From the NCBI GenBank assembly GCA_026770705.1, contig JANJGN010000116.1, positions 558,001-622,000 on the forward strand: a stretch of DNA of 64,000 bases, given 5' to 3'. The stretch comes from Isurus oxyrinchus (taxonomy: Eukaryota). Within the stretch, counting starts at the first letter, position 1, and each line of letters opens with the position of its first letter. Shown piece by piece: positions 9,131 to 61,033 of the stretch. The position numbers were made by a program, and so were the translations under genes. The notes beneath the pieces were generated by a model. It worked only from the letters and a program-made list of their open reading frames with translations, was not told the origin of the DNA and searched no databases.

Positions 9131-9203
9131 GGCAAGTTAGCTCCGTTACTTAGAGGATGATGTTAATGACAGTAAGCTCGCGGGTTTAATCCCCCAATAA
9201 CCA
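9131..9203 (+). tRNA. tRNA-Ile(AAT) pseudogene
   Basis: GGCAAGTTAGCTCCGTTACTTAGAGGATGATGTTAATGACAGTAAGCTCGCGGGTTTAATCCCCCAATAACCA aligns to vertebrate tRNA-Ile-AAT. The anticodon is kept; the stems and B box are damaged. Confidence 0.7.
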
Positions 9204-9819
9204 AATTGACAAGGAAGAATATGGTCTTTTTACAGTTAAGTTGCAGACCTTCTACTATTAAATTATTTCAGGTTCAGTTATAGTTCCTTTACTGTCACAT
9301 CGGAAGAGGATTTCGAATAGAACCGTGTTGCCTTGCGACATCGCAGGTTTTGTCTTTCTTTTCATACTTCTTGCCTCTGCAAAATTTCTGCTTCTTGTTC
9401 TGGCAAGTCTCTTCGTCGTTTAACGCTCTGTGCAACAAATCTCAGTATCATGACAGGAGCCTTTTCCCCTGTACAGCGAAACACTTGCAGATCAGCAGTG
9501 ACATTGCTGTCAACTGTGCCAATGCCTGCCGTTGGGCTGCAATTCTGCAGACAAATTCACTCGTGCCAACTTGCAAGTGCCAGCGCCACCAATCACACTA
9601 GCCTACCATAAAATGATTGCAACTAAACTATCAACAGCCCTCTACACGATAAAATAACTGGCTTCCCATCAATTTCACGCAAAAAATGCATCTGTCACGA
9701 AAGCGTATCCATTTTAATATTTCTGACATATGTCGGAACAAATCTGAACAGATCTCCTACAAACTGTGCTATTTATCTGACTGTCACTATCACTGTTCTT
9801 ATTTACTTCTTTCATACAA

Positions 9820-10800
9820 CGAACCTATTTATAATCATGATTCTCGCCAGAAGAGAAATTACGGCCATTCCAATTGTCTTTCTGTCTCTCTGGTGTCTGG
9901 CAACAACAGATCTACAGGCCATGTTTTTCCTATAATGGAATATCAAATTTTCAGCAAATTCTTTCCACATGCATTTATCTCTAACACTGCCATCGTTATG
10001 ACACGACAAAATTTATAATTCAACAGCTACTACATCATTTTGCGCTGATGCATTCATTATAGGTTTGCCACTGTGACCACCTTACTTCTCATTCACAATT
10101 CAGTTCCAATTCCAAGCTTCAATTGCCACTGTCCCTGTCAGCGAGATGATGTCAGAATTTTAAAACAAAGAATATCACTGAGAAAACTGACACAGTGAAC
10201 ATAATAGTGGTCTCTGTGCTGAACTATTGAGGGAAATTGCCATTTTGGCTGCCTAAAAGCACAAATGTTCATTTATGAGGAACTGAACAAACTGCGAAAA
10301 CGGGTGATCAACATACTGTTCATTAATAATATTCACTAGGGTTCCTGCACTTGCGTGGATTTTTTTCATCGCCTTCTGGTGTCGCAAACTTTCGGTTTGG
10401 AGGTGTTTTACCTCCATTACTTCCTTTTTCGTATTATTATTTAATTGTTCGACAATCAGACACATTTTGACAGCTCTCAGAGCGCACAGGGAACTTTGGA
10501 ATCACAACAGTAAGAAATGGAATGACCCAGAAGCGGAAAACTGAATAACACCAATTATTTGCCTGTTCACTGAATCAAGAAGTTTTCTGATGTTATGGTT
10601 CACAGCGGCTGTCTATTCTGTAACTAACAACCTAGCTGTTCATTACCGGCCGGATTTTACATCCCTGCCAAACATCGCCTCTCAAACAGGTTTAATGTTA
10701 AATTGTTTGACTTCCTTTACAGATACTTGTGTTTATGCAGCTAGACAAGCTGTTAACATCCTTTCACACAGATAAACCTCCTCCATCTGAATTAAAGCAA
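9820..10800 (+). pseudogene. GPR139/GPR142-like GPCR pseudogene (exon 2 relic)
   Basis: Broken acceptor (catacAA) then NLFIIMILAR..NYGHSNCLSV..ATTDL; FKTK..VSVL..LPFW; INNIH*G; LLFNCSTIRHIL; DPEAEN; LWFTAAV..TDTCVYAARQ. Collinear with the intact gene at 54 kb, with many frameshifts and stops. Confidence 0.85.
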
Positions 10801-11585
10801 ACCGCGTTAATGCTCATCAGCTGGAAATCCTGCATTTCCTCCCAAACATTTCAGGTTCTTATTAAAATACGTTTCAATTAGTTTCCTGAGTTTATTGATT
10901 ACCTGTTTTTGCAGTTGTTTCAGTTTGCTGTAAATTAAAATGATGTAATTGATCTGGATTTTTTTTTTGTGTGTGTGTTTCCAAGCTTCTGGTTAATGGA
11001 TTTAATTTTATGCATTTGCAAGTCAGGGAGCTGATAATCATTTCAATCATGAAGGCTGTGAGCAGTGTTTGAATGCTTCCTCCGAACCGCATATACAAGA
11101 GACTTGCAGAAATAGCTTAACCTTTTGGTGACCACAACTGGACAAATGTAGCTTTGTTAGGTGTGGGTACAAAATATCAGGCATAATGTTACGTAAAAAA
11201 CATCGGACAATTGCCTGGAATCATTCATTCATCACCTTCACCTCATGATCCCACTTCTAATCTCCCAGCCCATGTGGAAATTAAATTCGTGAATTGCTGA
11301 ATCCTACTGTTTAGATGGAAGCCTGTCGGCCCAACGTGCCTGTGCATCCTCTTTGAAAGATCTGTCAATTATGTTCTAAAATCCAGCTTATAACCATCAG
11401 CATGCAAATTAGCTCTATTTAAATCCCGATTGAAACTGATTTCGCCATTCCTTGAGGTGGAAAAACAAAGTAGCATAAAAGCTGGTAAAATGAAAGAAAA
11501 CAAATTCCCAAAGCAAACATGCAACAGAAGTTTGCGATACCTCTTTGTGGGCAGTGAAAGCGCCGTGGGAAGCATATGAAATGCA

Positions 11586-11657
11586 GCCCGGGTACCTCAG
11601 TCGGTTGAGCATTGGACATTTAATCTGAGGGTCCATGGTTCCATCGCTGTCTGTGCG
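11586..11657 (+). tRNA. tRNA-Lys(TTT) pseudogene
   Basis: GCCCGGGTACCTCAGTCGGTTGAGCATTGGACATTTAATCTGAGGGTCCATGGTTCCATC... aligns to tRNA-Lys-TTT; a TTTTT tract follows. Confidence 0.8.
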
Positions 11658-12629
11658 CGTTCTTTTTGGCTCAAGGCAAACCCCCAGCAAAACAGCAACA
11701 GAACGAGCAATGGACGTTGAATTCTTCAAGGAGAACTGAAGAAATGGATGATCCTTTGCTTTACAGAAAAATATCCACCATCTCGTAATTATGGTAGCTT
11801 CGAACAATTGTATAATTGTTTCTGGATTTCCAGCTACTGTAAGTGTGAAAAGTGCCTCCTGATTTTTCCGTTGGTTTGTAAGATCGCTGTGGATCAGAGG
11901 CAAAATCATGTCAAGGTTTAACACCATTCTTACCGGAGGGAGAAACAGTTTCTTGGTATTTAACCTAATAATTCACGTTAACAGGTTAGAGACCTCGATC
12001 ATATCAACATTCATTCTTCGGTACGCGAGGGAAAGCAATAGCTTGCAAGCCCTGAATAGGAAGAAAATGTACAGAGTTGAGGGAGGAGGCGAAGGGTTGG
12101 CGCTAGGTGAATTTATCCTTCTGAAAGCCAACACAGGCAGGATGGGTCAAATCCTATGCTGGGCCCGTTCTATGATCATGTTCAATTTTTCAGTGGGTAG
12201 GTGATGAGATTGAGGTCACGATGGTATTCTTTCATCTAAAAATGGGTCACGACTCCAGGTTGACGTGACATTTATAATAGATTGACAGCTTTTACTATTA
12301 TTCGTTCTTGGATGTGAGCATCGCTGGTAAGGTCCTCATTTATTTGTGGAGCTTTCTTCTCCAGTTCTCTGTTCAACTCTCCACCACCGTTCACTACTGT
12401 ATGTGGAAGCTCTGCACAGCTTAAATCTGATCCTTTGATTTTGGGATCACTTCGAAAGCAATAGTCTGTGAGAACAGGAGACAATAGTTTTCATGGCACA
12501 AATGCCACGTGTTGTAATGGGAATGAGATAAACAGTGTTTGCAGAAGGCACTACTTGGGCCTCAGTTGGTATATCTCGTTTGACTCTGAATGATGTGACG
12601 ATGTCAATCATGTTGGAACAAGGGCAGAA

Positions 12630-12965: not shown

Positions 12966-13019
12966 CTAGGGGGACTAGACGGCTACCAGTGGCCCTGGTT
13001 CCGAGTTTCCAAGTCAGCG

Positions 13020-13990
13020 GAAATAGTGTTAGGCAGAACTTTCCTGTTCAACGTTACAAAAAAAGTATCAAATTCCTCCTACAATCACGAGTTAGGGTTT
13101 CCGTAAAGAGACAGTTTGTGTGTAAAATGTAGTGACCGGGCTGAGGTTCACTGTCGGGAATTGAAGAGAGTTAGTAGAGAGTTCAAGAAGCAAACAGAGT
13201 TACAGAGGAAGAAAACTGAAAGATTGGCGAGGAGTAAAACCGCGGTATATGAATGCAGTTCATCATCCTTCAAGTCTTACTCAATGAAGGACCGAAAGGT
13301 GAAATCATCTCACTGCAAAGGAGCTGCTGATTAGTGCAGTGACCAGAAAACATAACTGAAATGAGCAGAATAGTCGTGTTTACTGAGGGAGAGGAAACGG
13401 GGTAAGCAAGGAACAAAAGACGGTTGATACTGACTAGCTGTCATCAGAAAGCAAAATAATGGAAGGAAGAAAGTAAATTATATAAATGAACAAATTTGTG
13501 GCAGGGATTTCAATGTAAGTTACTCTGTCATGTTACGGCCACTGTTTACATGATGCACGTTTATTGTCAGATTATTAATGAATTCTGCCTGGACACTAAT
13601 TACCACATCGTGCATAGCTGGTTTAAAATATCTCGTTTCAGAAAACTGTCCTGCATTATATCTACCAAACCATTAATTCCGATTCAGCCCAGTTGAGGTG
13701 AAAGAGCTAGTTTCTGCGTTAACACACACAGGGAAATATCGCCTGACTTTCTGGGTGAAGATCCCGGGATCTCTGAAACCAACCGCTAATTCTTGACTCT
13801 GACGTTCGTTGATACATCTTTATCTTTTTCTGCATATGTCTTCATAAAACCAACCAATTATCAAATTTTAATGTATGTTTCAAATTTCGGCTTTATTTAT
13901 TTGTATAACTACTATGAACCCGGAATATTAGGAACTCGGGTCCCTTACGTGACAGACCACATTGCATTAACCACTATAGTAAGCAGGAAT
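13020..13990 (+). repeat. Local duplication block A, copy 1 (ends in tRNA-Asp relic)
   Basis: Collinear with 20540-21575 (gtcgggaattgaagag, gattggcgagga, tgagggagagg, cactgtttaca, aatgaattctgcct, ccgattcagcc). Confidence 0.85.
13915..13988 (-). tRNA. tRNA-Asp(GTC) pseudogene
   Basis: Plus strand gaactcgggtcccttacgtgacag...ccactatagtaagcagga matches the reverse complement of tRNA-Asp-GTC. Confidence 0.65.
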
Positions 13991-14487
13991 TGATCCACAT
14001 AGTGGCTTACAGGCTTAGATCTTCCATGCCTCTGACATGCAAACACAAACTCCTTTACAGCGCAGCACAATCGATGATCAATGCGCTGCTGCAGAGGAGA
14101 TGCTATCTGCATCACCTAAACGAGCCTAGTTATCGACCTGTGTAAAGCTGCAAAATGCAATTGTGAACATATGTATATGAGAGATGCAGAGATAATGATG
14201 GACAGGTGGAGAAACAGCGACAGAAAAACCTAATGGTGCAAGAGGACTGGAGGATCGAAAATGTTCTATCCGTGTTCAAGAAAGTGGTTGGAAATCTTCT
14301 TCTTGTAATTTCTGCCGTGTGTGTTTTCGGAACAAAATCTCACTGAAACTGATTAAATTAATCTCCGATCTTGGAGTTCCTTAGCTGAGAGGTTTTAAAT
14401 TAACAATAATAAAAACAGAAAATGCTTGAAAAGCTCAGCAGGTCTGACAGCATCCAAAGAGAGAGTAACGGAGTAAACATTTCTATT

Positions 14488-14559
14488 GGGCATGGCGGAA
14501 ATGCAACACGAATCGACAGCGCGGAAGACACATTATATTCCCTGCTACACCACTAACGC
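14488..14559 (-). tRNA. tRNA-Gly(TCC) pseudogene, heavily decayed
   Basis: gcatggcggaaatgcaacacgaatcgacagcgcggaag...ctacaccactaacgc approximates the reverse complement of tRNA-Gly-TCC. Confidence 0.5.
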
Positions 14560-17785: not shown

Positions 17786-17857
17786 GTGATTGTGGTCTAG
17801 TGATGGACATAGCTGCTTTTCAAGCAGTTGATGTGGGCTCAATTCCCAACAATCGCA
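17786..17857 (+). tRNA. tRNA-Gly(TCC)-derived pseudogene, anticodon now TTC
   Basis: 72-nt ungapped alignment to tRNA-Gly-TCC; acceptor stem GTGATTG/CAATCGC still pairs; loop TTTTCAA; B box GTTCGA changed to GCTCAA. Confidence 0.85.
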
Positions 17858-18906
17858 GTTTGTTCATTTCAAATCTCTGAGAGCAAGCAAGTTTTGATGA
17901 GATTAAATTTTGCTCCAAAAACGCACGCGGCTGTAATTCAAGCAAAGCAATTTCCAAGCTCCATTTACATAACAGAGAAGTGAAGTCTTGGAGGGATTTG
18001 AAAGTGAGGATGAGGATTTTATAATTGAGGAATTGCCGTATGAGGAGTTAGTTTACTGGGTCAGCAATCACAGGGGTGATTGGTGCGGTTTCATATATTT
18101 AGATTAGGGACATAGAAATATTTATCCAGAGGTAGAAAGCTTGAATGCATCACAACTGTTCTGCTCACAGGCAGCAGTGAAACTACGACTGGGTTGCACT
18201 GTCCATTTCCTTTCTAGTTTGTCAGGCTGCTGTCTCTTAAACGCAAATTACAACACCTATGTACATTTTACCCTAGAATATGCAGGATGTCAACTGATAT
18301 ATCGGGATATGACCTAATTACTTCAGATAGAACATAAATGCACAAGGAACTGAGCTGGGCATTGACCGCTTCACAGGAAAAATTGAGATGGGAAAGCGAT
18401 GAAATACTGAAAGAATTAATCTCAAAAAAAAGATAAATACGGGAAAAACCCTGAAGCTCTGACAGTTTCGCGCAGCGGGTCTGTTATTTAAAGATTCTAT
18501 AGACCTGTAATATTGATCTACCCTTCCTCTTTCGGACCTGATTGCAACACCTTCTGTTCTTATTTCAGATTCCCAGCGTGAGTTATCTGTCCCTTTCTGA
18601 ACAATTAATCAATCTCTGTGCTGATATCAATATCCAAATAAAGAAATGAGAAGCAGCAGAAGGAAAGGTTTAATGGAATTAATGAATTTTATTTAATGTG
18701 GTTAAACCTATCCTGGCTCCACACTAAAGTTCAGCAATGAGGAACAAACCTGAGTAACATTCTAAATGGATGGTAAGTGGAGGTTGTAAATCTTTGTATT
18801 TGAATAACAGCTGCATGTTTTCTCCATGCAAGATCTCAGCGATTCTGATCAAATAAAGCTCCGAGTGTGGGGTTACTTATTTGAGAAGTTTTAAAAATCA
18901 ACAAAC

Positions 18907-18979
18907 TGCGATGTCGGGTAATTGAACCAGAGTCAACAGCTTGAAAAAGCAAGACCGCACACTACTATTACACCATCGC
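18907..18979 (-). tRNA. tRNA-Gly(TCC)-derived pseudogene
   Basis: tgcgatgtcgggtaattgaaccagagtcaacagcttgaaaaagc...actattacaccatcgc matches the reverse complement of tRNA-Gly. Confidence 0.75.
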
Positions 18980-18989
18980 TGAATTGGGT

Positions 18990-19615
18990 ACTTTCACAGC
19001 AGCAAACTGTCCCAAGGCACTTAAGAACGTTATCATTAAAAATAAGGCTGATGCTCAGCGACTGATGGAGAACTTAGGTCTGGTGACAAAAGCTTTCTCT
19101 GAGAGGTAGATTTTAAGGAGTTTCCAAAAGATGAGAGGGAGCTCGAGAAGTGGGGCGGTTTGGGAAGGGCGCCCATGATTTTAGACCAGGTCAGGTGAAT
19201 GCACGGTTGTCAATGCAGTAGAGAGTAAAACCCGTTATGTGCAAGATGACAGTAGAGCAGAAGTAAGAAAGTTTTCTTGGGCTGGAGGAGGTTAAATAGA
19301 AATAGAGGGGTGAATTCAGGGAGATATTTTAAAGTCAGGATGAGTGTTTTAAATATGAGGCATTGCCGGGTTAGGCGTCAGTGTCGGTCAGAAAACATGG
19401 GGGTGATTGGTGAACTGAACTTGGTTCAGGAGAAGTTCCAGGAAACAGAATTTTGGTTGAGCACAGGTGTATGTAGGGTGGAGATGGGAGGCCGGCCAGG
19501 GGAACACTAGAATAGTCAAGACCTGAGTGAACGAAGACATGGATGAGAGTTTCAGCAGCAGGTGAACTGAGGCAGGAACGGACTTGGCCGATGTTTATGA
19601 TGTGCAAGTCCATTC
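18990..19615 (-). mobile_element. L2 LINE 3' fragment
   Basis: AAETLIHVFVHSGLDYSSVPLAGLP, the L2 RT C-terminal motif (LIHAFVTSRLDYSN.LLAGLP). Confidence 0.75.
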
Positions 19616-19689
19616 TGTTCATCTGATAACATCCTGTCAGAGTCTCTAATATCATGCAGTTTTATCAGATATATTGGAGGGGAAAATAG

Positions 19690-20130
19690 ATACAGCGTCA
19701 GGTATTATTGATCAATGTTGGAATTTTTGCTGTATCTGTATCTCTCGAAAACTATGCCAGTGCCGGACTTTTCACATTTCATTGCAATTCGAAACTGAAC
19801 AGAATATCCCAGAATGTGGCCAAGGACTGAGAGCCTTTAAGTCTGACATTTTCCCCTTGAAGTAGCCCAATTGGGAGCATTTCCTGCAGGACATTTGTTG
19901 TTCATGAACTATTAATATCAATAATTTGTGGGTTCACTGAGGAGGATGAAGTGTCAGTGAACAGACTGGAGTGTCACAGTTATTCTGTTCCCAGCTCTCC
20001 AGCTCCCAGCCTTTTAGTGAGGAATCGGTCTCCCAGGGATTCTGTTGTCCCCATTTTCGCCCGATTCCCGACTCTTAACATTGAGTGAACTGGCAGCTGC
20101 CAGTAACTCCAGCATTGGGATCCTGGTGAG
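19690..20130 (+). repeat. Duplication block B, copy 1
   Basis: Collinear with 60610-61033 (ctttcacatttca, attaatatcaa, ttcactgag..gatgaag, tgtcacagtt.ttctgttccc, ctctccagctc, cgcccgatt, tcctggtgag). Confidence 0.8.
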
Positions 20131-20539: not shown

Positions 20540-21575
20540 GAATTGTTTCCGATTTTCCATACCTGTTCAAACTTGCAAAAAAAATGTATAGAATCCTTAC
20601 TGCAATCATGACGAATTACTACGGCACAGGGACAGTCAGTGGGTTCTATGTAGAGACTGAATTGTGGTTTGGTGTCGGGAATTGAAGAGTATCAGGAGGG
20701 AGTTCAAGAGACAATCAGAGTTGCAAAGGAAGACAACTGGATGATTGGCGAGGAGGAAGAGAGAAGAATAAAAATGGCGTTCATCATCTTTCAAATTTTA
20801 TTCAATGAAAGGCCCAAAGAGAAAATAATCTCTGTGCCAGGGATCTGCTGATAGTGAAATGACCAGAAAATAGAACTGGAATTTGGAGAATCATCGTGTT
20901 CGCTGAGGGAGAGGCAATGCTATAAGAAAAGATAAGTTCGGAGGGGTGCGGTGATGAAAGGCAGGATTCTGAATAGCTGTTGTCCGAAAGCAAAGGAAAT
21001 AAAGGGCAAATTGCATTTTAAAAATGAACAAAATGGTGGCAGAGATTATAATGTATATAACCCTCTCATTTTACAGTCACTGTTTACAAGATGCAACTTT
21101 ACTGTGAGATTATGAATGAATTCTGCCTAGTTAGATTACAAAGTCGTGTATGGCCTGTTCCTCTCGGTTTTAAAATAACCTATTTCAGCAAACTGTCCTG
21201 CTTTCAAACAACAAAATTCAATGATTTCACAGAAATGCCGATTCAGCCTAGTTTAAGTGAAAGAGCCAACATTGGTGTTAGGACACATATCGAATTGTGG
21301 GCTGACTGTTGGAATGAAGGGCCGTTCCTCTCAAGGAACACTAAAATTCCTGTATCTCTAAAAAACTACTGCTGATCCTGAATCTGCCTGTCGCTGATAA
21401 GAAATATTTATCCGCACTGTCTTTTTACATATCAAACTGTCCAGTGTTAAAGTCCATTTCCAATTTCGTGTGTTTTCTTTCTTAAAGATAAAAAGAAACC
21501 TACGCCTGATTGCGGAATGGAACCCTAGTCTCCCTCATGATCAGTTGGCATACTAATCATTATACTAACGAGGAG
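20540..21575 (+). repeat. Local duplication block A, copy 2 (ends in tRNA-Asp relic)
   Basis: Collinear with 13020-13990. Confidence 0.85.
21502..21574 (-). tRNA. tRNA-Asp(GTC) pseudogene
   Basis: ggaatggaaccctagtctccctcatgatcag...tactaatcattatactaacgagga matches the reverse complement of tRNA-Asp; a minus-strand T5 tract lies downstream (21490-21494). Confidence 0.8.
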
Positions 21576-32619: not shown

Positions 32620-33635
32620 AATCATTTAATTAAATTTACAACTGAACTACTATGGTAATGTAAAATATTTTTCAAGTGTTTCCTGAACTTAGCCTGAGTC
32701 ATTGCAGAAAAATAAATGTTCGTGCAGCATCCAAAGAGCTGGAGCACGTATCCCAGTTCTCGGATATGCATGTGGAAACGCAGAATGATACCCCATAGAG
32801 AGTACAGAGAAATATTGCCCAGAGCAGAATGAAAATCCCCGAGATAGCAAACAGCAAAATGTTGGGTTTTCTCCAACTTCCCAGTTCCAGGTCTCTGGAT
32901 ATTCCGGCACTGCTGCGTTGACAGCGTCTCCTTCGAGATCTGTTGGCTACCATTATTTGTCGGGCATTCACTGCATGCAACAACAGTATCAGAACAAATG
33001 AGTATCAGGGTGTGAAAATAAATAGAAGGAGCCAGATTTTTACCCAAACCAATGCTTGATGGATAATGTCAGGTGCTTCACAAAACCAGGATCTGTTCAT
33101 ATGCCAATCTTGACCTCTTAACATAAGATACCAGGTGCTGTCATTTAAGAAGTAAATGCCAAATCAACCCGTGCCATTTTCTTAGTGCAGTAATTAGTTT
33201 TCAACTTCTAACAACAACAGGTCCCGAATCGATCAAATGTGAAAGTCACGTTGAACCAAAGTGAACAGTCTGTTGCAGAAAGCAAAGCAGCATGAATATT
33301 ACACACAGGGATAGACTGTATCAATAGAAACTGTCGCTGGTAAGCAATTGGGATCTTACGCAAAATCAGATCAATGATAATGACCCGTAGATCAGTCACT
33401 GTCATGGCCACCATGTAACGGCTGAAACATTTGGAGACACACTTTCCACGAGATCAGATTACAGTCGGGACTAACTTAACAGTAGAAAGAAAAAAAAAGA
33501 AATATCATACACCACGCTGGGACCAAAATCAAATTGAATATGTAAAGAGATTTACAAATGTACTACAGCATGCAATGATGTAGTGAAATGATGGCACCTT
33601 TGGCAGGGTCATCCGTTGGAGACATGGGCTACCAT
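32620..33635 (-). pseudogene. GPR139/GPR142-like GPCR pseudogene, probably two exons with a short intron
   Basis: Exon 2 from 33479 after a mutated acceptor (ctacTG): RGKC-SKCFSRYMVAMTVTDL...TDCSLWFNVTFTFDRF...PWFC...CCTNIYFSAMTQAKFRKHLK. Putative exon 1 ~33555-33635 (FHYIIACCSTF followed by gtaaat). Confidence 0.85.
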
Positions 33636-47732: not shown

Positions 47733-47802
47733 ATGGAGCGGCCAATAATTCTACAGATCAAGGATATTTACTATCCCGTGCTCGTAGCCATTGGTACTCC
47801 TG
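47733..47802 (+). CDS. GPR139/GPR142-like GPCR, coding exon 1 (MERPIILQIKDIYYPVLVAIGTP)
   Basis: AAAATGG Kozak-like start, 70 nt (23 codons + 1), canonical CCTG|GTAAGT donor. Phase 1 joins exon 2 in frame to complete TM1 (YYPVLVAIGTPVNLLTIV). Confidence 0.9.
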
Positions 47803-49545: not shown

Positions 49546-49663
49546 AGCAGGTCTGGCAGCATCTGCGGAGAGGAACACATTTTACGTTTTGACTCCTTAA
49601 GACTCCTGAACACAACTCGAAATGCTAACTGTGTTCCTCTCCGCAGATGCTGCCAGACCTGCT
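49546..49663. repeat. Perfect 34-bp inverted repeat of a Penelope terminus
   Basis: agcaggtctggcagcatctgcggagaggaacaca (49546-49579) and its exact reverse complement (49630-49663), 50-nt spacer. Confidence 0.95.
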
Positions 49664-50039
49664 TTGTTTTTCCGGTTATTTTTATTTTTATTTTTGTTTT
49701 GGATTTTCAGTATCCACAGTTTTTTTGCTTTTCTATCAGTATTGGGGACAATTGGTTTCCCTGATATTTGTTAACAACTTTTGTTTACATGACAAAATTC
49801 CAAACGTTGCAGATATATAAAACCTTGCGGTATTTTGAAATGTGAGGACGATGGTTAGAACATCAAAGGGAGTAGAATAGTTGGTGGAATGGCCGGACAG
49901 TTGGCAGATTATGTTCAATGCAGAAAATTGTGAAGTGACTCATTTTGGCAGGGAGAAGGGAGATATACAAAAAAATGTACAGCTCTAAAGGGTGTGGATT
50001 GGCAGAGAGACTAGAGTTCAGAATAAATTAGTATTGCTG

Positions 50040-52029: not shown

Positions 52030-53522
52030 TGATGACTTCCAGCTCTGTCTCACCATCCAACTTCTCGATTACTCCACCTCGACTAAATTATGAGGCTGCT
52101 TTCCCCACCCATATCCAGTAGTGAATGATCAGACATTTTCTCTCATTAAATATCGGAAAGCTGGAAGCCATTGCCTCTGTTAAATTTGACTATGTTCCTC
52201 TGCTGAAAAGTTGTCTGGGGCTAAACAAGGCTGCTTGCAAACTGAATGTGGGAGCTGACCTTGAGATTAGCTTTTGATGACATATCCCTTCTATCTCGTA
52301 GCCGGTATTTATCCATCTTCGCAACATTTTCCAACTTTGCCAAGTCCCAGCTGATCTGCTGTGGAAACCTTCATTCTATAGTCTTTGTTACCTGAAGTCT
52401 TTGCTGTTCCAATGCACACCTGCCCCTCCTCCTACATTCTGCCGCTTTTAAACTTGTGGTCATCCAAATCTCTGTTACCCGAGTCCTTATCAACAACAAA
52501 TCACGTTCACTGATCATGCCTATGCTTGCTGGCCTAATACATCTCCCGATCAATCAAATCCTTCATTTTAAAATCCTCATCTTTGCTTGCAAGCCTCACC
52601 TTCCCCACTGTTACGATATAAAGTATAATTCTTTGTTCGGATATGATCAATATTCGTGGAATTAAAGGAGACAACTGATTATAAATGTCACTTTATTACA
52701 TTTACATACCGACAAGCAATAACATCACGTCCTTCTGCTCGTCGGGGACACCGTGGTGACGGCTGTTCGAGAGCTATCCTCATGTTCCTTGGCACTCGTC
52801 GTGAACCAGTTTCACTGGTGAAGGCCCAATTATTGTAGCAATAATCTCACATCCTTCTACAAATTGTAGACAACGTGGTGGCGGCTTGTCCAGAGATATC
52901 TTCAGGTTCCTTGCCACCGGTGGTGAACGCAGTGCATAGGTGAATTCGGAATTCGACTAGATGGTGCCCGCCTTTATAGAATGGTATAAACAAAGGACTT
53001 ATCTTGTTTGCTACGTTCTTTCTCGTGTTAGTCACTGCCAGCTGTTGTTAGCATGTATTAGACAGTTTATACTATATTAACCCATGAATATTATGTTAAG
53101 ACTGTGACAATCCGCAGATTCCCACATTCAGCCTCCCTCCTCCGTCCAAACCCCAAAACCCATTACCACAAGTTCTCACCCATTTTATATCTGAAATCTC
53201 CTCCAACTCCATGGACCGTGATGACATTTCCAACCTTATGAATCGGGCATCGTAGACATTTCCAGTTTTAATTGTTCCAGAATTCGGACCCTGTTTTGGA
53301 CTTGCTCCCTGAATTTCCAACCACAAACATTTCCGCCTCTCTACGTCTCTTCTTCCTTTCACGATGCTCCATAAAGTTGCACTCTTTGACCAAGCTTTTT
53401 GCCACCGTCCTAAGTGTTCCTCAATTGCTCCCTATCTATTTTGATTTTATGGCACTTATTTGAAGAGCCTCGAGAGATTTTATAACGTTAATGGCACTAT
53501 ATACATATAAGCTCTAGTTGTT
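52030..53522 (+). mobile_element. L2 LINE RT to 3' end, interrupted
   Basis: ctgatgacttccagctc (DDTQL), ETFIL.FVT..L, HFKILIF, and L2 tail ggcactatatacatataagctctagttgtt. Confidence 0.7.
52609..53109 (-). mobile_element. Candidate solo LTR inserted in L2
   Basis: tgttac...gtgaca termini, minus-strand TATAAA (~52972) and AATAAA (~52692) in LTR order; no TSD seen. Confidence 0.4.
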
Positions 53523-54030
53523 GCCACTTACATCCCATCCTTCCTTAACATTGGAGTTGGTTGCATTTCAATCATGGAAAACAAATGGCTGTAGAAGAAT
53601 TACAGATAAATGACTACAAATAAAACGACTCATATTAAAATATCAGCTGAAGTCGCAAGCCTGCCACAATCAGCCTCCTGCTACCAAGCATTCCCCTACA
53701 ACTGCTACACCGCACCATCCCTGTTAGTGACTCCTGTCTTGGGTTATTAGAGTCTGGGTCTCTTTGATGTAGGTCGCTCACTTTCAGCATTCCCCTACCT
53801 GATTCCGAAAGACTCTGTTACCTTTTAAATGAAATATGTATGAAGGGCATTCAGTGTTAAATTGTTTATTTGATTGGGGAAAAAAGTGCCATCAATGCTT
53901 GCCTAAAATTCTGGAAGGAAACAGTGCTGTCAATTGCAAATAGAAGCACATCTGTAAATTTCCCCGCAATTTATGGCCAGGTGTTCCTGAGTGTCCCCCA
54001 TTATTTAACTCTTCTCCCTCTTTCTTGCAG

Positions 54031-54971
54031 TGAACCTACTGACAATAGTGACTCTCTGCAAAGGAAATTGCCACCTTCCCATAAGTATCTCTATATACAT
54101 GGTGGCCATGGCAGCAGTGGATCTACTGGCCAGGCTCATCCATAGAATTGGGCATCAAATTATGCGGGAACGTTTTCCAAATTCAATCCTCTCCTATACC
54201 TTTATTTGTAAACTTATGTTGTACATGACTTCTACCAATGTTGGTTTGTCCGTCTGGTTTACAGTCTCCTTCACATGTGACCGGTTTGTTGCTATATGTT
54301 GTGAGAAACTGAAAACCAGATATTGCACAGTGAGAACTGCGTCCATCATCATAATAATTGTTTCTGTGCTAATTTGTTTAGAGAGCATCCCTTTTTGGCT
54401 TGCATTTGAACATAAAATAATAATTAACAATATTGAGTGGGGTTTCATCCCCAGTATGTCCTTTCTCAGATCGCCTGCAGGCGGAGCCTACTTCAGATTA
54501 CAAAGTTTTCTATTTTCATTGATTCCTTTTGCTTTGATATTACTATTTAATTGTTTAACAGTGAGACGCATTATCATAACCAATATTACCCGCAGGAGAC
54601 TCCGGGCTCCCAGGACTGGGAATCAGCGCGATGCAGAGATGGAGAACCAAAGGAAATCCATTATTTTACTGTTCGCCCTGTCGGCAAATTTTATATTGTT
54701 AAGTCTGATATCAGTAGTGAGTCAGTGGACTGATGCCCTGGTTCTAATATTCCGACGAGAATATACAAACCCTGCATATATTGTCAATGAGACTGGATAC
54801 ATGCTCACCCAGTTGAAGTCTTGTACAAACACATGCATTTATGCAGCGACACAAACAAAGTTCAGAGATGAGCTCATTAGTGTGGTCAAATCTCCTTGGA
54901 AATTTGTTTTGTCGTTGGGTACAAGTATGAATAAAAACAAAGCCAAATGTCCTGCCCTTGTTGGAGAATAA
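54031..54971 (+). CDS. GPR139/GPR142-like class A GPCR, coding exon 2 (full protein 336 aa)
   Basis: Polypyrimidine tract + ttgcAG acceptor at 54030; open 7TM frame with MAAVDL (TM2), SVWFTVSFTCDRFVAIC (TM3), IPF, IPFALILLFN (TM5), RKSIILLF (TM6), CTNTCIY (TM7). 70+941=1011 nt. Confidence 0.93.
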
Positions 54972-56459
54972 TTACAGCCCTTGTTTCCATATAGAATAGC
55001 CAACTTTCCATTTAGATCAAAGGAGTTGGTTGTCATTGAAAATCAAGAGGAATCAGAAAGCATTTCCTGAATTTAGTGCCGTGTGTTTCATGTCTATTGT
55101 TCTCCAACACTGTACAGCTCAATTCCCTGATTAAACCTTCCACTTTATACCCCAGATTCAAAGGGAATAGTCACGTTTGAGGTTCAAATAGGGAATCGAA
55201 CATGGGGGAGTCTGCATTTACTGCCATACACTCCAGCTACTGGAATAATGTTCTCTGGTAAATTAATTTATCGCATCCTTTAGGATAGAAGGTGTTGAAA
55301 ACTAGATTGTTTATCGTTAACCTGTAATATTGGTGTGGATGTTACAAACCCTGGTGCCTCCATCAGATTCCAGCTTCCATTTCTTCCGGAGGTAAAAGAA
55401 AAGTGTCATGTCCGTGATCTGTATCAAATTATAAGGCAACAAGAACTTGGTTCAACGTATTAACTATAACTCTCAATTGGTCGTGAAAATGTTGGTATTT
55501 TCAAAGAGGCGAATGGCCATTCCAAACAGCCAAAACTTGTGGACCTTTAGCCTCCAATCAAGAAAATAGTCGCAACAGTTTATGCCGGCACTTATGAACA
55601 TCATCTGGCTATTTTTGTTCACCAACATATTTATTTTCATCTTTATTTTGGAATAATTTCTGTCTCTGCGAAATCCACTGTCTCCCAGTTGCCGGTAAAG
55701 ATTTTTGTTCACCATCAATTCTAAATGATTCTGGCATTGAATATTTTATATCTGACGTTTAGTTCTTGACCCCTGATCTAACAGAAGGTATCAGCATCCA
55801 TTTGTCCAGTCCTCTTGAAGGTTAACCAGTTGGGTACGACTCAACGAATTAAAAATAAAAACTCACTTGATAACCGTGTGGTGTCCTTCTGCCAAGGAAA
55901 CCTCTGAACGTGCACCATTTTACTTAGTATGAAAGATACAGAAAAACAAGAACAGACATGCCGTTTCAATGTTACATTGATGGGATATTTATCTAGAGTG
56001 AAAGTATCCATAAAATGAATATATTAAACTTAATGCAATCATGCATTGCGTACTGGGGCTCATAGTCTGTTGCACATGAACACGCATATGCTGACTCAAC
56101 GCTTTTCTATCCATTAGGCCTCTGATACTGAACTCGGCATTCTGCTATGTTTTTTTCATCCACGAACAGTAGCCAGGCTGATTGTCATTTCAATTTCCCG
56201 CTTGTTCTTATTATTCCATATTTAATAAATCTATGGCGAATCACTTCAGTGTTCAAGAATATGGCTGCAAACCTTACATGTCCAATGAACTTCGAACTTC
56301 AATTCTGGAACAGATTCATTCATTCAGAATTGTGATTTAATTCGTTTCCCGTCACACTTCAATGTTCCATAACATCGTTAGGCTCACGGAAAGTCAACCT
56401 CCTAATTGTAGTGTTCAGTGGCATCCAGGCTCTGCCAATCCTGCTGGCAGTCAGCTTTC

Positions 56460-58105
56460 TGAAACAAAAACAAAAATACCTGAAAAAACTCAGCTGGTCT
56501 TACAGCATCTGCGGAGAAGTACACAGTCGACGTTTCGAGTCCATATGATTCTTCATCAGAACTAAGGAAATAGAAAAATGAGGTGAAATATAAGCTGGTA
56601 GAGGTGAGTGGGTCAGGTAATGCTGGATAGGGGCCCAGTGATAGGTGTAGGCACAGAAGCGATTGCCAAAGATGTCATAGAGAAAAGGGAAAAAAAAGTG
56701 GTGTTGATGGTGGTGATGTTATCTAAGGAATATGATAATGTGGACATTAAGGGAAGCAAGCAGAACAAGCTAGACGTGGACGGCCCTGGTGGGGGTGGGG
56801 GTGGGGGTGGGGGAAGGGATCGAAAGGTACAGATAAAACAATAGATCGAAATAAATTTTAAAAATAGGTTGGAAAAGAAAAATATATATATTTTTAAAGT
56901 ATACATTATTGGAAAAAGCGGGAGTGGAGGGGCTGGTGGAGAGTTCATGATAGGAAATTGTTAAACTCAATATTAACTCCGGAAGCCTGTAATGTGCCTA
57001 GTCAGAAGATGAGGTGCAATTGTAGCAAGCTAAGGATGGACATGTAGGCATGAGAGCAGGTTGATGTGTTGAAATGGCAAGCATCAGGGACGTCTGGGTC
57101 ATGATTGCGCTCAGACCGATGGTGTTCCGCAAAGCTGTCACACAGTCTGCATTTGGTCTCTCCAATGTAGAGGAACCCGCATTGGGAGTATCGAATGCAG
57201 TTGACTAAATTGAGAGACGTGCAAGTGAAGCTCTACTTCACTGGAAAGGGGTGTTTTGGCCCTTGGATGGTGAGGAGGGGGGAATAAAGGGGCCAGTGTT
57301 GCACGATCTGTAGATGCATGGGAAGGTTCAGTGGGAGGGGGTTGAGGTGTAGGGTGTGATGGCAGAGTGGACCAGGGTGTCCCGGAGGAACGTTCCATGT
57401 GAAAAGCCGCCGGGAGGCAGGAGGGGTGGGTGAAGGCAAAATCTTTTTGGTGCTAGCAGCATGCTGGAGTTGGCAAAAATAGGGGACGATGCTCCTTTCA
57501 ACGTGGAGGCTGTAGGGTGATAAGTGAGGACAAGGGGGACCCAATAATTCTTCTGGGAGGGAGGTAAAGGTGTGAGGGCGAATGCACGGGAGATGGACCG
57601 GACACGGTTGAGGGCTCTGTCAACAACCGTGTGTGGAAAACATCAGTTAAGGAAGAAGGCAGACATGTCAGAGGAACTGTTTTGGCAAGTGGCGTCATCA
57701 GAGCAGATGGCACAGAGGGGAAGGAACAGAGAGATTGGGATACAGTCCTTAAAGAAAGAGGGGTGTGAGGAGCTGTATTCGAGGTAGCTGTGGGAGTCGG
57801 TGGGCTTGTAATGAATATTGGTGGACAACCTGTGACCAGAAATTGAGACTGAGAGGTCAAAAATGGGAAGGGAAGTGTTAGTGTTGGACCACGTGAAAAT
57901 GATGGAGGGGTGTAAATCAGAGAAAAAAAAAATATTTTTTTCCAGATCCAGGAGAGATCATGAAGCGGCACTGAAACATTTATTGATGTAGTTTGAGAAA
58001 CATTTGTGGAAACTGAGTAGTACTGGAACAGGTAATGTCCCACATACCGCATGAAGACAGGCATTAATGGGGTCAATGCATTACCCATATCCACGTCATT
58101 TAATT
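56460..58105 (-). mobile_element. Penelope-like element (RT C-terminus + GIY-YIG + terminal repeat)
   Basis: DMGNALTP..VFMRYV, STNIHYKPTDSHSYLEYSSSHP..KDCIP, and a decayed CSRCG.LYIGETK region (~57160-57210). Confidence 0.9.
56525..56563 (-). ncRNA. Minimal type I hammerhead ribozyme motif in the Penelope terminus
   Basis: Minus strand AGTT-CTGATGA-A-GAATC-ATATG-GACTC-GAAA-C-GTC-GACT: intact CUGAUGA and GAAA cores, stem I AGUU/GACU, stem II with one mismatch, GUC cleavage triplet. Confidence 0.75.
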
Positions 58106-59940
58106 GCTCTCTGGAACTGCTTTCTGAAACTGGTGAACAGCTGCTCTTGTTTCTGCGCATAAATTGCATTTTCCTTTATCTGTATTCAGACGTGAAGTAC
58201 CATTTAAGGCAGGCGTCGGGCAGCAGATAGATGGTTTAATTATGTCGAACAGCGATTAATCAAAAACTATCTACTATGAGCATCAATGTCCAGTCAACAA
58301 TACATAAAATAAGTAATGGAAAATTTAACCCTTTACACTACGGTGTCAAATGCATTTACATATGTATGTATTTTCATAACCCTGTTTGTACGTGTAGACT
58401 TCTTGTTTTCCCTTAGGTAGCTCTTTTTTTTCTAATTAACAGTCACGGAGTATCCCCGACATTGCTATCCCTTGCGTCAATAATTAAGCCATTATTTTAA
58501 CTTGCGTCCACTACTTCAAAATAAATACATATCGCTTTCCCCTGATACGTCCATTCATTCCATTTCAATTTAGACAGCTCGTGTGTTACTCAAAACGAAA
58601 GAATATCAGAGGAGAGCTAATTATTTTGTGAATCCTCCTTGAATACTTATTTTGCCATTGGGTGAAAATTTGAAAAATCTAACCAAAAATTCCAGTCCGA
58701 GTTGGAGCACAGTTCGTGTGCTTCATTGAGTTATCTTGCCCGCCTATCAGACAACTCTCGATTATCAGTAAATTGACGGGAGGTGCTGTTGAAGTGCTAT
58801 CAAGCATCGCTTGCACACCAATAAAATGCTCACTGATGCGGTCGTAACTTTGCCTCACGATTTCCTTCAAAAATTACTCAGCGCTGCAGCCGGTAGAGGC
58901 AATTCCGGCTGCAGTAAATTGAAACGGGTATCGGCTCAATGTTATACGTGGCCATCGGTACTTGCCTCCGCTTCACTGCTACTTGGAAGATTAGGGCCCA
59001 TGTCTAAATCCCATAGAAGTTGAAACGCTGTTCTGTCCTACTCTCTGACCTGTGAACTTCACTGTGTCACAGATTAGTGACCACTACTGTACGGAAGCAA
59101 TAACTGCAACATAAGCGGAAAACTTCAAAGTCTGTCAGGGAATAGATTCTGCACGCTCGTATTCTTTCACAGTTAAAATGTAAATATGAAATGAACCAAT
59201 TCTTAACAAAAAAGTTCTCCTTTTTTGTTTCAATATTTGCAAACTTGCTCCATTGCCTTTTTACTATGGGTTAAACAGTAGTTCTGTGGAATTCCCATAA
59301 TACCATCTACATTTTCTTAAACAAAACCAAAACACAATTAAACAAAGAACGAAGCGCAATGCTGAGAGTTTCACAGGAAACAATCAAATCGGAGAGGAAT
59401 GATATCCGAGAAGAATAAATCTGAAAGAAAGGCGGACAATTGAAAGAGTCAGTTTTAGCCGGCAGATTCTGTGCAGTAGAGTATATCGGGGATCAGCTCT
59501 AGGATCCTTGTATAGACCTGAATTGTTATTCCTCCCTTTCTCTCTCCAGTGATATTACTGCTGAGTCTTTCCAGCAACTTATGTTATTATTTACGAATCC
59601 CAGCGTGTGCAGTAATACATCTCGCTTTTTGAAGACTAAACAACCCTTGTGCGGCAATCGATATTTAAATAAGAAATAGGGAACATCAGAGTGAAACTTA
59701 TCCGAGAATGACTGAATTTCACTTAATCCGAGTAATTTCATTTTCGTTCCACGGTGCAGCTCACGGAAAATCATAATTATTAAAAATGCGAAAAAAGGAA
59801 AAAAGCCTGAGTGAAAATTTAAATAGGTTTGTATTCCAATTAGACCCGCATGTATTGTCCAATTAAAATGCCTCCGAACCGCTTGAAGTGTACTTGCACT
59901 CTTATAGTTAACGGCTTCACGAATTTAGAGTTTGCATACT

Positions 59941-60011
59941 AGCATGGACGGGAATCGAAATCGGATTCAATGCTTTGGAAATAACCATGCTAGTCACTAT
60001 ATCACCATCTT
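59941..60011 (-). tRNA. tRNA-Gly(TCC) pseudogene
   Basis: gcatggacgggaatcgaaatcggattcaatgctttggaaataaccatgctagtcactatatcaccatc matches the reverse complement of tRNA-Gly-TCC. Confidence 0.7.
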
Positions 60012-60609
60012 TGACTGGTGAGGAGCTTTGGCGATTTTTTTTTCCAGATTTTATTACTGATCTGTTCCTCTTTGGTAATCAGTATTTTTTTCCACTCCCA
60101 TGAAATATTAAGGATACGCTGATAATGATGTAACTTTTCTTAGTGTAAAGGTGTAGCTAATACCTGCAACATTTGATGAGATTCACAGATGTCTTTTTCT
60201 GAAGCTCACATCAGTCATTCACTCAAGATAAATGTTAAGTTCAATTGTTGTTCAAAAGATTCAGACCTAGCACCCATACATTTCCAGACACCAGACACAT
60301 GCTCCATTATGGAACTCTTATTCTGTCCGCCCCCTCCCCAATCTCCCCATTCATTAAATAATGACCTATGTTCCATTGTGCGGCAGATTTTCAAAGTGCA
60401 CACAATCTTGGGCAAAGGGTGCAAAAAACTAGGAAATTATGAGCAACCTGTGTGAAACACTGCTTTGACCTTAGCTACAGTATTGTGCCCAGTTTTCATT
60501 GCCACACTTAGGAAGTAGTGAAATTCAAACACTTACAGTCCCAATTGCCAAACATTACTATTTTCGTTACAACTGTATTTCTGGAAGCTGATTATAATTA
60601 AATAGAAAA

Positions 60610-61033
60610 CACATAATTGGAATCAGGCATTAGAAATTGATGTCGGTTGTTACGGAGGACACATTGAGTGGAGATTAAGATTGTAAATCTCTCCAAGGGC
60701 CTTTCACATTTCAGTGTAACCTGAAACTGAATTTGAACAATAGACTGATACGCTTCAGTGTTTCCACTGATATTGTTCAAGTTGGGATCAAATCCTGCCG
60801 GACAATTTCTGCACATAAGAACATTAATATCAACGATTCCTGGGACAGGTTTCACTGAGAGAGATGAAGAGTCAGTGGACGAACTGTCACAGTTGTTCTG
60901 TTCCCGACTCTCCAGCTCTCTGTCTGCTATTGAGGAAATTGTCTCGCAGGAAATGTGTTTCGAATTCCGCCCGATTAACACTAGATGAATAGAACGCTGC
61001 TGATCCAATTTCCAGTATCTGGCTCCTGGTGAG
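60610..61033 (+). repeat. Duplication block B, copy 2
   Basis: Collinear with 19690-20130. Confidence 0.8.

What the first reader, a model, noticed from the sequence alone, without database searches (positions are those of the whole stretch)
9131..61033. Decaying array of GPR139-like receptors interleaved with tRNA genes
Seen: three GPCR copies (one intact, two pseudogenes, both orientations) mixed with about nine tRNA relics of four isotypes, several inside duplicated blocks. Known: mammals have single-copy GPR139 and GPR142, both activated by aromatic amino acids. Inference: this lineage amplified the receptor by birth-and-death inside tRNA arrays, with tRNA repeats possibly acting as recombination substrates or insulators. 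The family could be an uncharacterised amino-acid-sensing or chemosensory repertoire.
Basis: partly seen in the sequence, partly recalled or inferred. Interest (0 to 1): 0.75.

Follow-up and report, generated by a model that had tools for sequence, protein, structure and literature searches.

The report
Shark orphan receptors amid dead tRNAs
This shark DNA holds one intact and two broken copies of a receptor from a very large, apparently unstudied shark-and-ray family that is only distantly related to GPR139 and likely detects many different chemicals, while the decayed tRNA genes around them are real but likely just passengers copied along with the region.

Summary
There is one intact two-exon, 336-aa class A GPCR, two pseudogenes in opposite orientations, a fourth short remnant, and eight decayed tRNA genes of four isotypes (Gly x4, Asp x2, Lys, Ile), several in old duplicated blocks. 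A ninth (Val) is unproven.

The interpretation needs correcting. The receptor is not a GPR139 or GPR142 copy: it scores 22 bits against human GPR139, against 93-98 bits for amphibian and coelacanth orphans (likely the 'GPR210' group), and keeps 0 of 4 GPR139 Trp/Phe pocket residues. It belongs to a family spread across sharks, rays and a chimaera (487 hits; 33 of the top 120 from one species), with hypervariable pockets and a conserved inner face. The three copies are old paralogues, not a local burst (AU p=5e-8).

The tRNAs have mutated B boxes, show CpG decay and lie no nearer the receptors than chance (p=0.55), so an insulator or recombination role is unsupported. Genome-wide co-location and expression could not be tested. 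I found no paper on the expansion in 10 searches. The family is the interesting part; the tRNA link looks ordinary.

The parts
9131..9204 (+). tRNA-Ile(AAT) relic
   Evidence: 68% full-length identity to an intact Ile-AAT gene, 25 bits; B box altered
9822..10751 (+). Receptor pseudogene 1 (exon 2 only, decayed acceptor, about 8 frameshifts and 5 stops)
   Evidence: same broad subfamily as the intact copy
11586..11658 (+). tRNA-Lys(TTT) relic with a T-run just 3'
   Evidence: 71% identity; 36.9 bits on the Lys-CTT profile, 26.3 on Lys-TTT; pairwise best is TTT
12989..13988 (.). Duplicated block A, copy 1, ending in an Asp relic
   Evidence: 65% identical to 20508-21500 over about 1 kb, E 2e-111
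13918..13988 (-). tRNA-Asp(GTC) relic, weak alone, supported by its paralogue
   Evidence: aligned in register with Asp 21503 and an intact Asp gene; 11.3 bits, within shuffle range
14488..14559 (-). tRNA-Gly(TCC) relic, with a repeat insertion directly 3'
   Evidence: 13.1 bits against shuffle maximum 12.1; flanks shared with Gly 18907
17786..17857 (+). Best-kept relic: Gly-TCC body with anticodon TTC (ARAGORN calls it Glu)
   Evidence: Rfam tRNA 40.3 bits; score 96 to Gly-TCC against 60 to Glu-CTC; B box altered
18331..20130 (.). Duplicated block B, copy 1, containing Gly relic 18907
   Evidence: colinear with 59331-61033 at 61-66%
18907..18979 (-). tRNA-Gly(TCC) relic
   Evidence: 71% identity, 18.9 bits
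20508..21574 (.). Duplicated block A, copy 2, ending in an Asp relic
21503..21574 (-). tRNA-Asp(GTC) relic with a T-run just 3'
   Evidence: 72% identity; blastn E 1e-8
32625..33480 (-). Receptor pseudogene 2 (exon 2 only, decayed acceptor, 2 frameshifts and 3 stops); a different subfamily
   Evidence: groups with a Stegostoma protein, SH-aLRT 99
47733..47802 (+). Exon 1 of the intact receptor (23 codons plus one base), TATA-like word about 80 nt upstream
   Evidence: (61.6 bits, shuffle maximum 7.1); matches the N-terminus of Carcharodon P0003
47803..54030 (+). 6.2-kb phase-1 intron, GT...AG, inferred from sequence and homology (no RNA seen)
54031..54971 (+). Exon 2 of the intact receptor (end of TM1 to stop)
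   Evidence: predicted helical-bundle model, pLDDT 89.7
58595..58714 (+). Remnant of the 3' end of a fourth receptor copy
   Evidence: 68% DNA identity to 54851-54973, E 1.6e-9; not detectable by protein profile
59028..59102 (-). Possible tRNA-Val relic, not above chance
   Evidence: 54.7% identity, equal to the shuffle maximum; 8.7 bits
59331..61033 (.). Duplicated block B, copy 2, containing Gly relic 59939
59939..60012 (-). tRNA-Gly(TCC) relic
   Evidence: 69% identity, 26.6 bits; depth near the single-copy level in run X1

Best explanation
The window holds one intact and two broken genes of a large cartilaginous-fish family of two-exon orphan GPCRs, which likely works as a repertoire of chemical sensors with diversified binding pockets, and the decayed tRNA genes beside them are likely passengers of the same DNA duplications. 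SHOWN: gene structure; family size and spread; distance from GPR139; variable pocket on a conserved inner face; three old paralogues; tRNA decay; duplicated blocks that carry tRNA relics. INFERRED: the family grew from one gene of the GPR139-related orphan group called GPR210, of which amphibians keep a conserved form. It expanded early in cartilaginous fishes by DNA-level duplication (the pseudogenes keep intron-acceptor remnants). Copies sit in an unstable, repeat-rich region that also held a Gly/Asp/Lys/Ile tRNA gene cluster, so both kinds of gene are copied in blocks and then die. Each receptor would bind a different amino-acid-like or peptide cue and signal through a shared G-protein interface. 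My odds by part: passengers in a shared unstable region about 0.75; external chemosensing rather than immune or hormonal sensing about 0.4.
For: FAMILY SIZE. 487 homologues among 5115 candidates; of the 120 listed, 33 are from Heptranchias, 24 from Heterodontus (12 sharing one contig length) and 23 from Pristiophorus. 135 clusters at 50% identity reach E<=1e-10. Of 20 high-scoring clusters looked up, 18 are elasmobranch, 1 chimaera, 1 unnamed. In run X1, whose contigs match the window almost exactly, summed depth over the middle of exon 2 is 376-1186 against about 17-20 on unique flanks, a hint of many close paralogues in this species (not a copy number).

PLACEMENT. A 99-sequence elasmobranch profile scores amphibian orphans 254-268 bits, a conserved fish/coelacanth/shark subtype 215-232 and the outgroup rows 101-135; human GPR139 scores 98.7 on the near-identical 103-sequence profile. 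In a 28-row tree the amphibian clade is sister to the expansion, 93/88.

POCKET. Column entropy is 2.9-3.5 bits at 3.32, 3.33, 5.39, 6.51, 6.58, 7.35 and 7.39, against 0.6-1.0 for the inner halves of TM3, TM6 and TM7. The same TM3 and TM7 columns are invariant or nearly so in the amphibian (15 rows) and conserved (16 rows) subtypes.

AGE. One clade for the three window copies is rejected, p-AU 5.5e-8, 24 rows.

tRNAs. All nine candidates differ from the nearest intact gene in the B box; substitutions hit 56 of 114 CpG bases against 137 of 535 others; relic pairs are 56-70% identical, their flanks 52-75%. Distance to receptor pieces is not below random, p 0.55 and 0.40. Sharks are rich in tRNA loci, and elasmobranch tRNA loci are clustered (bioRxiv 10.1101/2025.06.08.657570, section 6).
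Against: There are no expression or ligand data, so the sensory role rests on pattern alone. Wide pocket variation is expected of any old paralogue set, and the comparison groups are orthologue sets. The trees hold no GPR139 or GPR142 sequence, so the branching order relative to them is untested. Support for the expansion as one clade is modest (83/79; 77). The intact copy and its two Carcharodon relatives lack the ECL2 cysteine (91 of 99 have it) and W6.48 (92 of 99), so this copy may be atypical or relaxed. The proximity test has only 8 relics in one window and cannot exclude a region-scale link. In several relic pairs, shared sequence stops close to the tRNA 5' end (5' flank z -1.3 to 0.7 in 6 of 7 pairs), which would also fit breakpoints at tRNAs or an RNA-derived origin. 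The reference tRNAs are not from sharks, so some differences counted as decay may be species differences.
Confidence: 0.58

Rival explanations
1. tRNA genes drive or shield the array: they serve as substrates for unequal recombination that multiplies receptor genes, or as TFIIIC-bound insulators between them.
For: Both main duplicated blocks contain a tRNA relic, and homology often ends near the tRNA 5' end. In organism B, contigs over 53.8-61 kb, which span the receptor 3' exon and a Gly relic, have depth 109-198 against about 16-43 for most stray contigs, a hint that gene and relic were recently multiplied together.
Against: All B boxes are altered, CpG decay is strong and the relics are no better kept than flanks. 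Neither duplicated block within the window contains a receptor exon, and suspected exon-1 relics at 20128 and 61033 failed the test. No relic lies within 4.9 kb of the intact gene or 11 kb of pseudogene 2. Proximity is at chance level. Transposon-like repeats are longer and far more abundant substrates (depth 1e4-1e6 at 56.2-57.9 kb).
Confidence: 0.12
2. The family is an immune, skin or peptide-hormone receptor repertoire (in the manner of MRGPR or formyl-peptide receptors; analogy recalled) and not a sensor of waterborne chemicals.
For: Same pattern of hypervariable pocket and birth-and-death. Nearest solved relatives after GPR139 are peptide and chemokine receptors. GPR139/142 cluster with invertebrate peptide receptors (PMC8514136 passages). 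In the catshark, the 50 most abundant and specific genes of a brain-plus-olfactory library included no GPCR (PMC11979771 passage; weak, since receptors are low-abundance).
Against: No tissue data either way. The conserved amphibian sister keeps three of the four GPR139 pocket residues, which points to a small aromatic ligand as the ancestral state.
Confidence: 0.3
3. The receptors are amplified GPR139/GPR142 that still sense Trp and Phe.
For: GPR139 is the nearest solved structure by profile, 98.7 bits against 72.3 for the next. Databases name most members 'probable GPR139'. H at the H187 position occurs in 31 of 99 members, and 11 of 99 keep three or four of the four residues.
Against: The single-sequence score is only 22.3 bits. 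The intact copy has S, Q, S, Y at the F109, H187, W241, N271 positions; 1 of 99 members keeps all four. Other vertebrate orphans score more than twice as high.
Confidence: 0.08
4. The tRNA-like pieces are heads of old tRNA-derived SINEs, so their presence is genome-wide background.
For: The four Gly relics share about 120-150 nt of 3' flank (z 2.8-13.2 in 5 of 6 pairs), and 5' flanks mostly differ.
Against: There are four different isotypes, most with full-length tRNA bodies and several with T-rich runs directly 3'. Gly 14488 and 18907 share 5' flank (z 4.6), and Gly 18907 and 59939 share a colinear block 0.8-1.1 kb upstream. Depth over Gly 59939 is 18 in X1, near the single-copy level, against 1e4-1e6 over a transposon nearby (at 85% likeness).
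Confidence: 0.08

Closest known systems
GPR210A/GPR210B and a third unnamed subtype: GPR139/142-related orphans of gar, fishes and coelacanth (Rinne et al. 2019, PMC6504862; lead author's name recalled; section 47 read)
   Same: The window family's nearest non-shark relatives include coelacanth H3B118 and H3BBB8. Their accession spacing equals that of two Ensembl ids cited in the paper (3600), under a recalled numbering rule, so the match is inferred. All vertebrate rows form one clade against the outgroup rows, 100/99.
   Different: The paper's main text does not mention sharks (0 hits) and describes low-copy subtypes. Sharks keep a separate conserved member of the H3B118 subtype (66% to coelacanth); the expanded family is another branch, sister to an amphibian clade.
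Human GPR139 (PDB 7VUG, 9M42) and GPR142
   Same: Class A GPCR; nearest solved receptor by profile; recognisable TM1-TM3 similarity.
   Different: 22 bits single-sequence; 0 of 4 Trp/Phe pocket residues (PMC5430874 abstract) kept in the window protein; many divergent copies instead of one conserved gene; longer ECL2 and ICL3 in the profile alignment.
Birth-and-death GPCR repertoires (ORs, TAARs, V1R/V2R, MRGPRs; properties recalled)
   Same: Clustered paralogues, many pseudogenes, variable pocket on a conserved signalling face.
   Different: A different branch of class A; two exons; tissue and ligands unknown. Cartilaginous fishes are described as poor in GPCRs and ORs (PMC8455134 passage).
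Vertebrate tRNA gene superclusters shared with other multigene families (red stingray chr28, human chr6, zebrafish chr4; bioRxiv 10.1101/2025.06.08.657570, sections 6 and 9 read)
   Same: Sharks have many tRNA loci, clustered and co-located with a proliferating gene family (histones there). Olfactory receptor genes next to the human chr6 tRNA cluster are recalled, from no call.
   Different: That preprint scored tRNAs above a cut-off of 50 and does not mention this receptor family in its main text; its supplements could not be seen. Here the tRNAs are dead, and no histone or zinc-finger gene was seen.

Membership tests
Class A (rhodopsin-like) GPCR | 7tm_1 domain and seven-helix fold | tested here: met
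   Pfam 50.6 bits against cut-off 30.5; model pLDDT 89.7, pTM 0.84; all listed fold matches are class A GPCRs
GPR139/GPR142 orthologues | High sequence conservation with GPR139 | tested here: not met
   22.3 bits over residues 1-122 only, against 98.2 and 93.3 bits to salamander and coelacanth orphans
GPR139/GPR142 orthologues | Trp/Phe pocket F109, H187, W241, N271 | tested here: not met
   Window protein S67, Q157, S224, Y256; 1 of 99 family members keeps all four
GPR139/GPR142 orthologues | Nesting within the GPR139 or GPR142 clade in a tree | not testable with these tools
   No search returned a true GPR139 or GPR142 as a usable protein; the trees lack them
Wider GPR139/142-related group | GPR139 is the nearest characterised vertebrate receptor | tested here: met
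   98.7 against 72.3 bits among solved structures; same order for the two bony-vertebrate subtypes; Atlas neighbours are GPR139-named and FMRFamide/Srw-type clusters
GPR210 orphan group (PMC6504862) | Clusters with the coelacanth genes cited as its members | tested here: inconclusive
   Groups with H3B118 and H3BBB8 against the outgroup rows, but the link to the cited Ensembl ids rests on accession arithmetic, and the supplement did not hold those ids
Chemosensory receptor repertoire | Many paralogues, pseudogenes and a hypervariable pocket | tested here: met
Chemosensory receptor repertoire | Expression in sensory cells and activation by external chemicals | not testable with these tools
   No RNA or ligand data were available
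tRNA-gene insulators (TFIIIC barriers; features recalled) | Intact B box | tested here: not met
   All nine candidates differ from the nearest intact gene in the B box; the mildest cases have one or two changes
tRNA-gene insulators (TFIIIC barriers; features recalled) | TFIIIC occupancy and boundary activity | not testable with these tools
   Needs ChIP and reporter assays
tRNA-derived SINE | High copy number, with a tRNA head and a shared body only 3' of it | tested here: not met
   Depth near the single-copy level over Gly 59939; shared 5' sequence in two pairs; only one relic was checked for depth

The most novel reading that the evidence does not exclude
Sharks, rays and chimaeras have an unrecognised chemosensory receptor repertoire of tens to hundreds of genes per genome, derived from the GPR210 orphan lineage and hidden under the automatic label 'probable GPR139'. 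It sits in tRNA-cluster domains whose segmental turnover keeps creating and killing receptors. This would help explain how animals with few olfactory receptors discriminate amino-acid and peptide cues.
Probability: 0.3. Interest if true: 0.85.

Novelty: new variant of a known kind. Interest (0 to 1): 0.5.

Why it matters
Cartilaginous fishes are described as poor in GPCRs and olfactory receptors (PMC8455134). A large family with diversified pockets, mislabelled as GPR139 in databases, would change that inventory and gives directly testable targets. The conserved amphibian sister keeps three of four GPR139 pocket residues, which offers a simple route to the ancestral ligand. The tRNA interleaving adds a possible genomic address for the family (tRNA clusters) but, on this evidence, no mechanism.

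Tried and rejected
- Lowered ARAGORN thresholds: 5, 29 and 76 calls at ps85, 80 and 75, against shuffle means of 4.8, 24.6 and 85.8; uninformative.
- Rfam on sub-regions found no further tRNA.
- The idea that the donor-like ends at 20128 and 61033 are dead receptor first exons: no hit with an exon-1 profile, and direct alignment scores of 39.5 and 33 against null means of about 34.5; rejected.
- The 53426 'Thr' match (56.9%) was treated as chance because no profile or flank evidence backs it.
- Fold search does not separate GPR139 (rank 42) from other peptide GPCRs.
- Sequencing runs: no RNA holder listed; this is no evidence on expression.
- The 26-bp satellite reported upstream of family promoters in another genome (earlier finding e1-7939187) was not seen here: no TRF array, and periodicity of 0.45 upstream of exon 1 against a shuffle maximum of 0.43, at period 34.
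- No zinc-finger motif in six frames. No family member in the 113 metagenome loci.
- The one-clade test on 84 rows did not finish; the result is from 24 rows.
- In one search the window for Asp 13918 was cut about 7 nt short at its 5' end, so its score (38) and 5' flank test understate it.
- Literature: 10 searches found no description of the expansion. The 2019 white shark genome paper is not held, the catshark supplement was unreadable, and bioRxiv supplements are closed; any of these may mention the family. The whale shark supplements (24 files) hold no 'GPR139' or 'receptor 139', and one 'GPR142' orthogroup line.

Full report
WHAT THE WINDOW IS. The DNA is from a shark, probably a lamniform: the best protein hits are Carcharodon proteins at 80% and 76% identity. 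No whole genome is held, so genome-wide tests were replaced by protein collections and contigs of public runs.

RECEPTORS. The only long receptor ORF starts within exon 2. A splice acceptor lies at 54030, and exon 1 is 6.2 kb upstream at 47733-47802, ending in a GT donor. An exon-1 profile built from 85 family proteins, leaving out the window exon and its closest relative, hits only this place (61.6 bits; maximum 7.1 in 20 shuffles). Pfam gives 7tm_1, and the model is a confident helical bundle (pLDDT 89.7). Pseudogene 1 (9822-10751, +) has about 8 frameshifts and 5 stops; pseudogene 2 (33480-32625, -) has 2 and 3. Both keep a pyrimidine-rich stretch with a decayed acceptor, which points to DNA-level copies and not retrocopies (inference). 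A further 120-nt remnant of a 3' end lies at 58595-58714.

tRNA RELICS. Standard tools find one tRNA, and relaxed ARAGORN equals chance. I therefore gathered intact tRNA genes from 113 metagenome loci (641 genes, 303 unique) and compared them with the window. Six places reach 68-78% full-length identity, against 53-55% maxima in 8 of the 20 shuffles made and 53% in the reversed window. Isotype profiles give 18.9-45.8 bits for five of these six, against shuffle maxima of 7.4-12.1; Asp 21503 scored only 8.6 on the mixed profiles but E 1e-8 pairwise. Gly 14488 and Asp 13918 are weaker and rest partly on shared flanks. A Val-like candidate is within chance. The relic that ARAGORN calls Glu has a Gly-TCC body (96 against 60). 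So eight relics of four isotypes are supported. Two duplicated blocks carry them: about 13.0-14.0 kb with 20.5-21.6 kb (Asp), and 18.3-20.1 kb with 59.3-61.0 kb (Gly), at 61-66% identity, so they are old.

HOW BIG AND HOW OLD THE FAMILY IS. The exon-2 protein finds 487 homologues among 5115 candidates; 119 of the 120 listed are named from 17 shark and ray species, with 33, 24 and 23 from three species and 12 sharing one contig length. At 50% clustering there are 135 hits at E<=1e-10. I named 30 of the 150 listed. Of 20 high scorers, 18 are elasmobranch, 1 is Callorhinchus and 1 is unnamed; the 10 tail rows were a salamander, two coelacanth proteins, a teleost, a barnacle and five unnamed. Contigs of run X1 match the window almost letter for letter. 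Their summed depth is about 17-20 on unique flanks and 376-1186 over the middle of exon 2 at 85% likeness, a hint of many close paralogues; the tool warns that this is not a copy number. In an 84-row tree the intact copy joins the two Carcharodon proteins (100), pseudogene 1 falls in the same broader subfamily (95), and pseudogene 2 joins a Stegostoma protein in another subfamily (99, 96); both pseudogenes are long branches. On 24 rows, one clade for the three is rejected (p-AU 5.5e-8). The array is therefore a mix of old paralogues, and the expansion is shared across cartilaginous fishes.

IS IT GPR139? It is related but not the same. Among solved structures GPR139 is nearest to the family profile (98.7 against 72.3 bits), yet the single protein scores 22.3 bits. 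An elasmobranch-only profile scores amphibian orphans 254-268, a conserved subtype of fishes, coelacanth and sharks 215-232, and outgroup rows 101-135. A second search showed both bony-vertebrate subtypes to be widespread, and that sharks keep a conserved member of one (193 hits). In a 28-row mixture-model tree the amphibian clade is sister to the expansion (93/88), and the expansion itself has modest support (83/79). PMC6504862 (passages, section 47 and one supplement searched) names such orphans GPR210A/B in gar, fishes and coelacanth and does not mention sharks. Two coelacanth proteins in my set appear to be two of its three cited genes, by accession spacing under a recalled rule; this is an inference. 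No tree here includes GPR139 or GPR142, so their exact position is open.

LIGAND POCKET. PMC5430874 (abstract and section 15) gives F109, H187, W241 and N271 as key for agonists, with similar effects for Trp and Phe. Mapped through the printed alignment, the window protein has S, Q, S and Y. Of 99 family members 1 keeps four, 10 keep three, 30 two, 51 one and 7 none. The amphibian clade keeps F, W and N in 15 of 15. Within the shark family, pocket columns have 2.9-3.5 bits of entropy, against 0.6-1.0 for the inner halves of TM3, TM6 and TM7. This is the pattern expected of a repertoire with diverse ligands and shared signalling, though old paralogue sets always vary more than orthologue sets. 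The window copy and its two Carcharodon relatives also lack the ECL2 cysteine and W6.48.

DO THE tRNAs MATTER? All nine candidates differ from their nearest intact gene in the B box; 56 of 114 CpG bases are substituted against 137 of 535 others; relic pairs are 56-70% identical and their flanks 52-75% (references are not shark genes). The eight relics are no closer to receptor pieces than random positions (median 3.5 kb, p 0.55; 3 of 8 within 1.5 kb, p 0.40). Neither duplicated block holds a receptor exon. Two results go against this reading. Shared sequence often stops near the tRNA 5' end (6 of 7 pairs lack shared 150-nt 5' flanks). And in organism B, about 5% diverged, contigs across 53.8-61 kb have depth 109-198 while most stray contigs have about 16-43, a hint that receptor and relic were multiplied together recently; that fits passengers as well as drivers. 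A SINE origin is unlikely given four isotypes, some shared 5' sequence and depth near the single-copy level over the one relic checked. The Squalomix preprint (passages and sections 6 and 9) reports that sharks are rich in tRNA loci and that a stingray cluster of over 300 tRNA loci shares a region with histone genes, as on human chromosome 6. Co-residence of tRNA arrays with a proliferating gene family is thus a known kind of arrangement.

PRIOR DESCRIPTION. Ten literature searches found no account of this expansion. Other papers seen: PMC10620051, PMC11979771, PMC8455134, PMC8514136, PMC12208981 and PMC12294341 as passages, PMC8455134 supplements searched, and the rest as listings only. The 2019 white shark genome paper and some supplements could not be seen and may mention the family. 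Two earlier notes of this scan describe the same family in other genomes; they are unchecked and not independent support, but they mean the family is not new to this scan.

VERDICT. The best reading is an old birth-and-death array of a chondrichthyan-expanded, GPR139-related orphan family, likely a ligand-diversified sensory repertoire, lying in a decaying tRNA cluster whose genes are likely passengers (0.58). Novelty: new variant of a known kind. Interest 0.5; 0.85 if sensory expression is shown.

Noticed in passing
window 54444-54446 and 54702-54704 (residues 138 and 224 of the exon-2 protein P0001): The intact copy and both Carcharodon relatives lack the ECL2 cysteine (91 of 99 members have it) and W6.48 (92 of 99); the nearest Heterodontus and Stegostoma proteins lack both too. 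This may be a subfamily with an altered activation switch.
   Followed up: partly
P0218, P0316 and relatives: A conserved amphibian orphan receptor, not seen in fishes or amniotes among the 120 hits listed, is sister to the shark expansion and keeps three of four GPR139 pocket residues.
   Followed up: partly
window 53800-61100, runs X5, X6, X9: In organism B the matching contigs have several times the depth of stray contigs, while in X1 they are at base level; a hint of a recent multi-copy block that may vary between individuals.
   Followed up: no
window 19765-20130 and 60697-61033: Two paralogous blocks, each about 1 kb upstream of a Gly relic, end together at a splice-donor-like site. They are not receptor exon 1; possibly a first exon of another decayed gene.
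   Followed up: partly
window 17786-17857: A Gly-TCC-type tRNA with anticodon TTC still passes ARAGORN and Rfam and would be annotated as tRNA-Glu; such relics may inflate shark tRNA counts.
   Followed up: partly
window 49512-49697, 9035-9129, 14403-14483, 56462-56563: A dispersed repeat that forms a long hairpin at 49.5 kb gives sub-threshold miRNA-family hits. It matches the edge of the very high-depth element at 56.2-57.9 kb, so it is likely a retroelement end (Penelope-like by recall). One copy is inserted directly 3' of Gly 14488.
   Followed up: partly
window ~4987-7403 (+) and ~25655-28978 (-): Two decayed LINE-like elements, 58-62% identical to each other; one ORF has a weak reverse transcriptase hit, below the Pfam cut-off.
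   Followed up: no
L013, L033, L048, L072 and similar metagenome loci: Several contigs carry dense arrays of 20-47 eukaryote-type tRNA genes covering most isotypes within 5-9 kb; origin not examined.
   Followed up: no
window 52715-52953: A diverged tandem duplication of about 120 nt (74%) inside the receptor intron.
   Followed up: no
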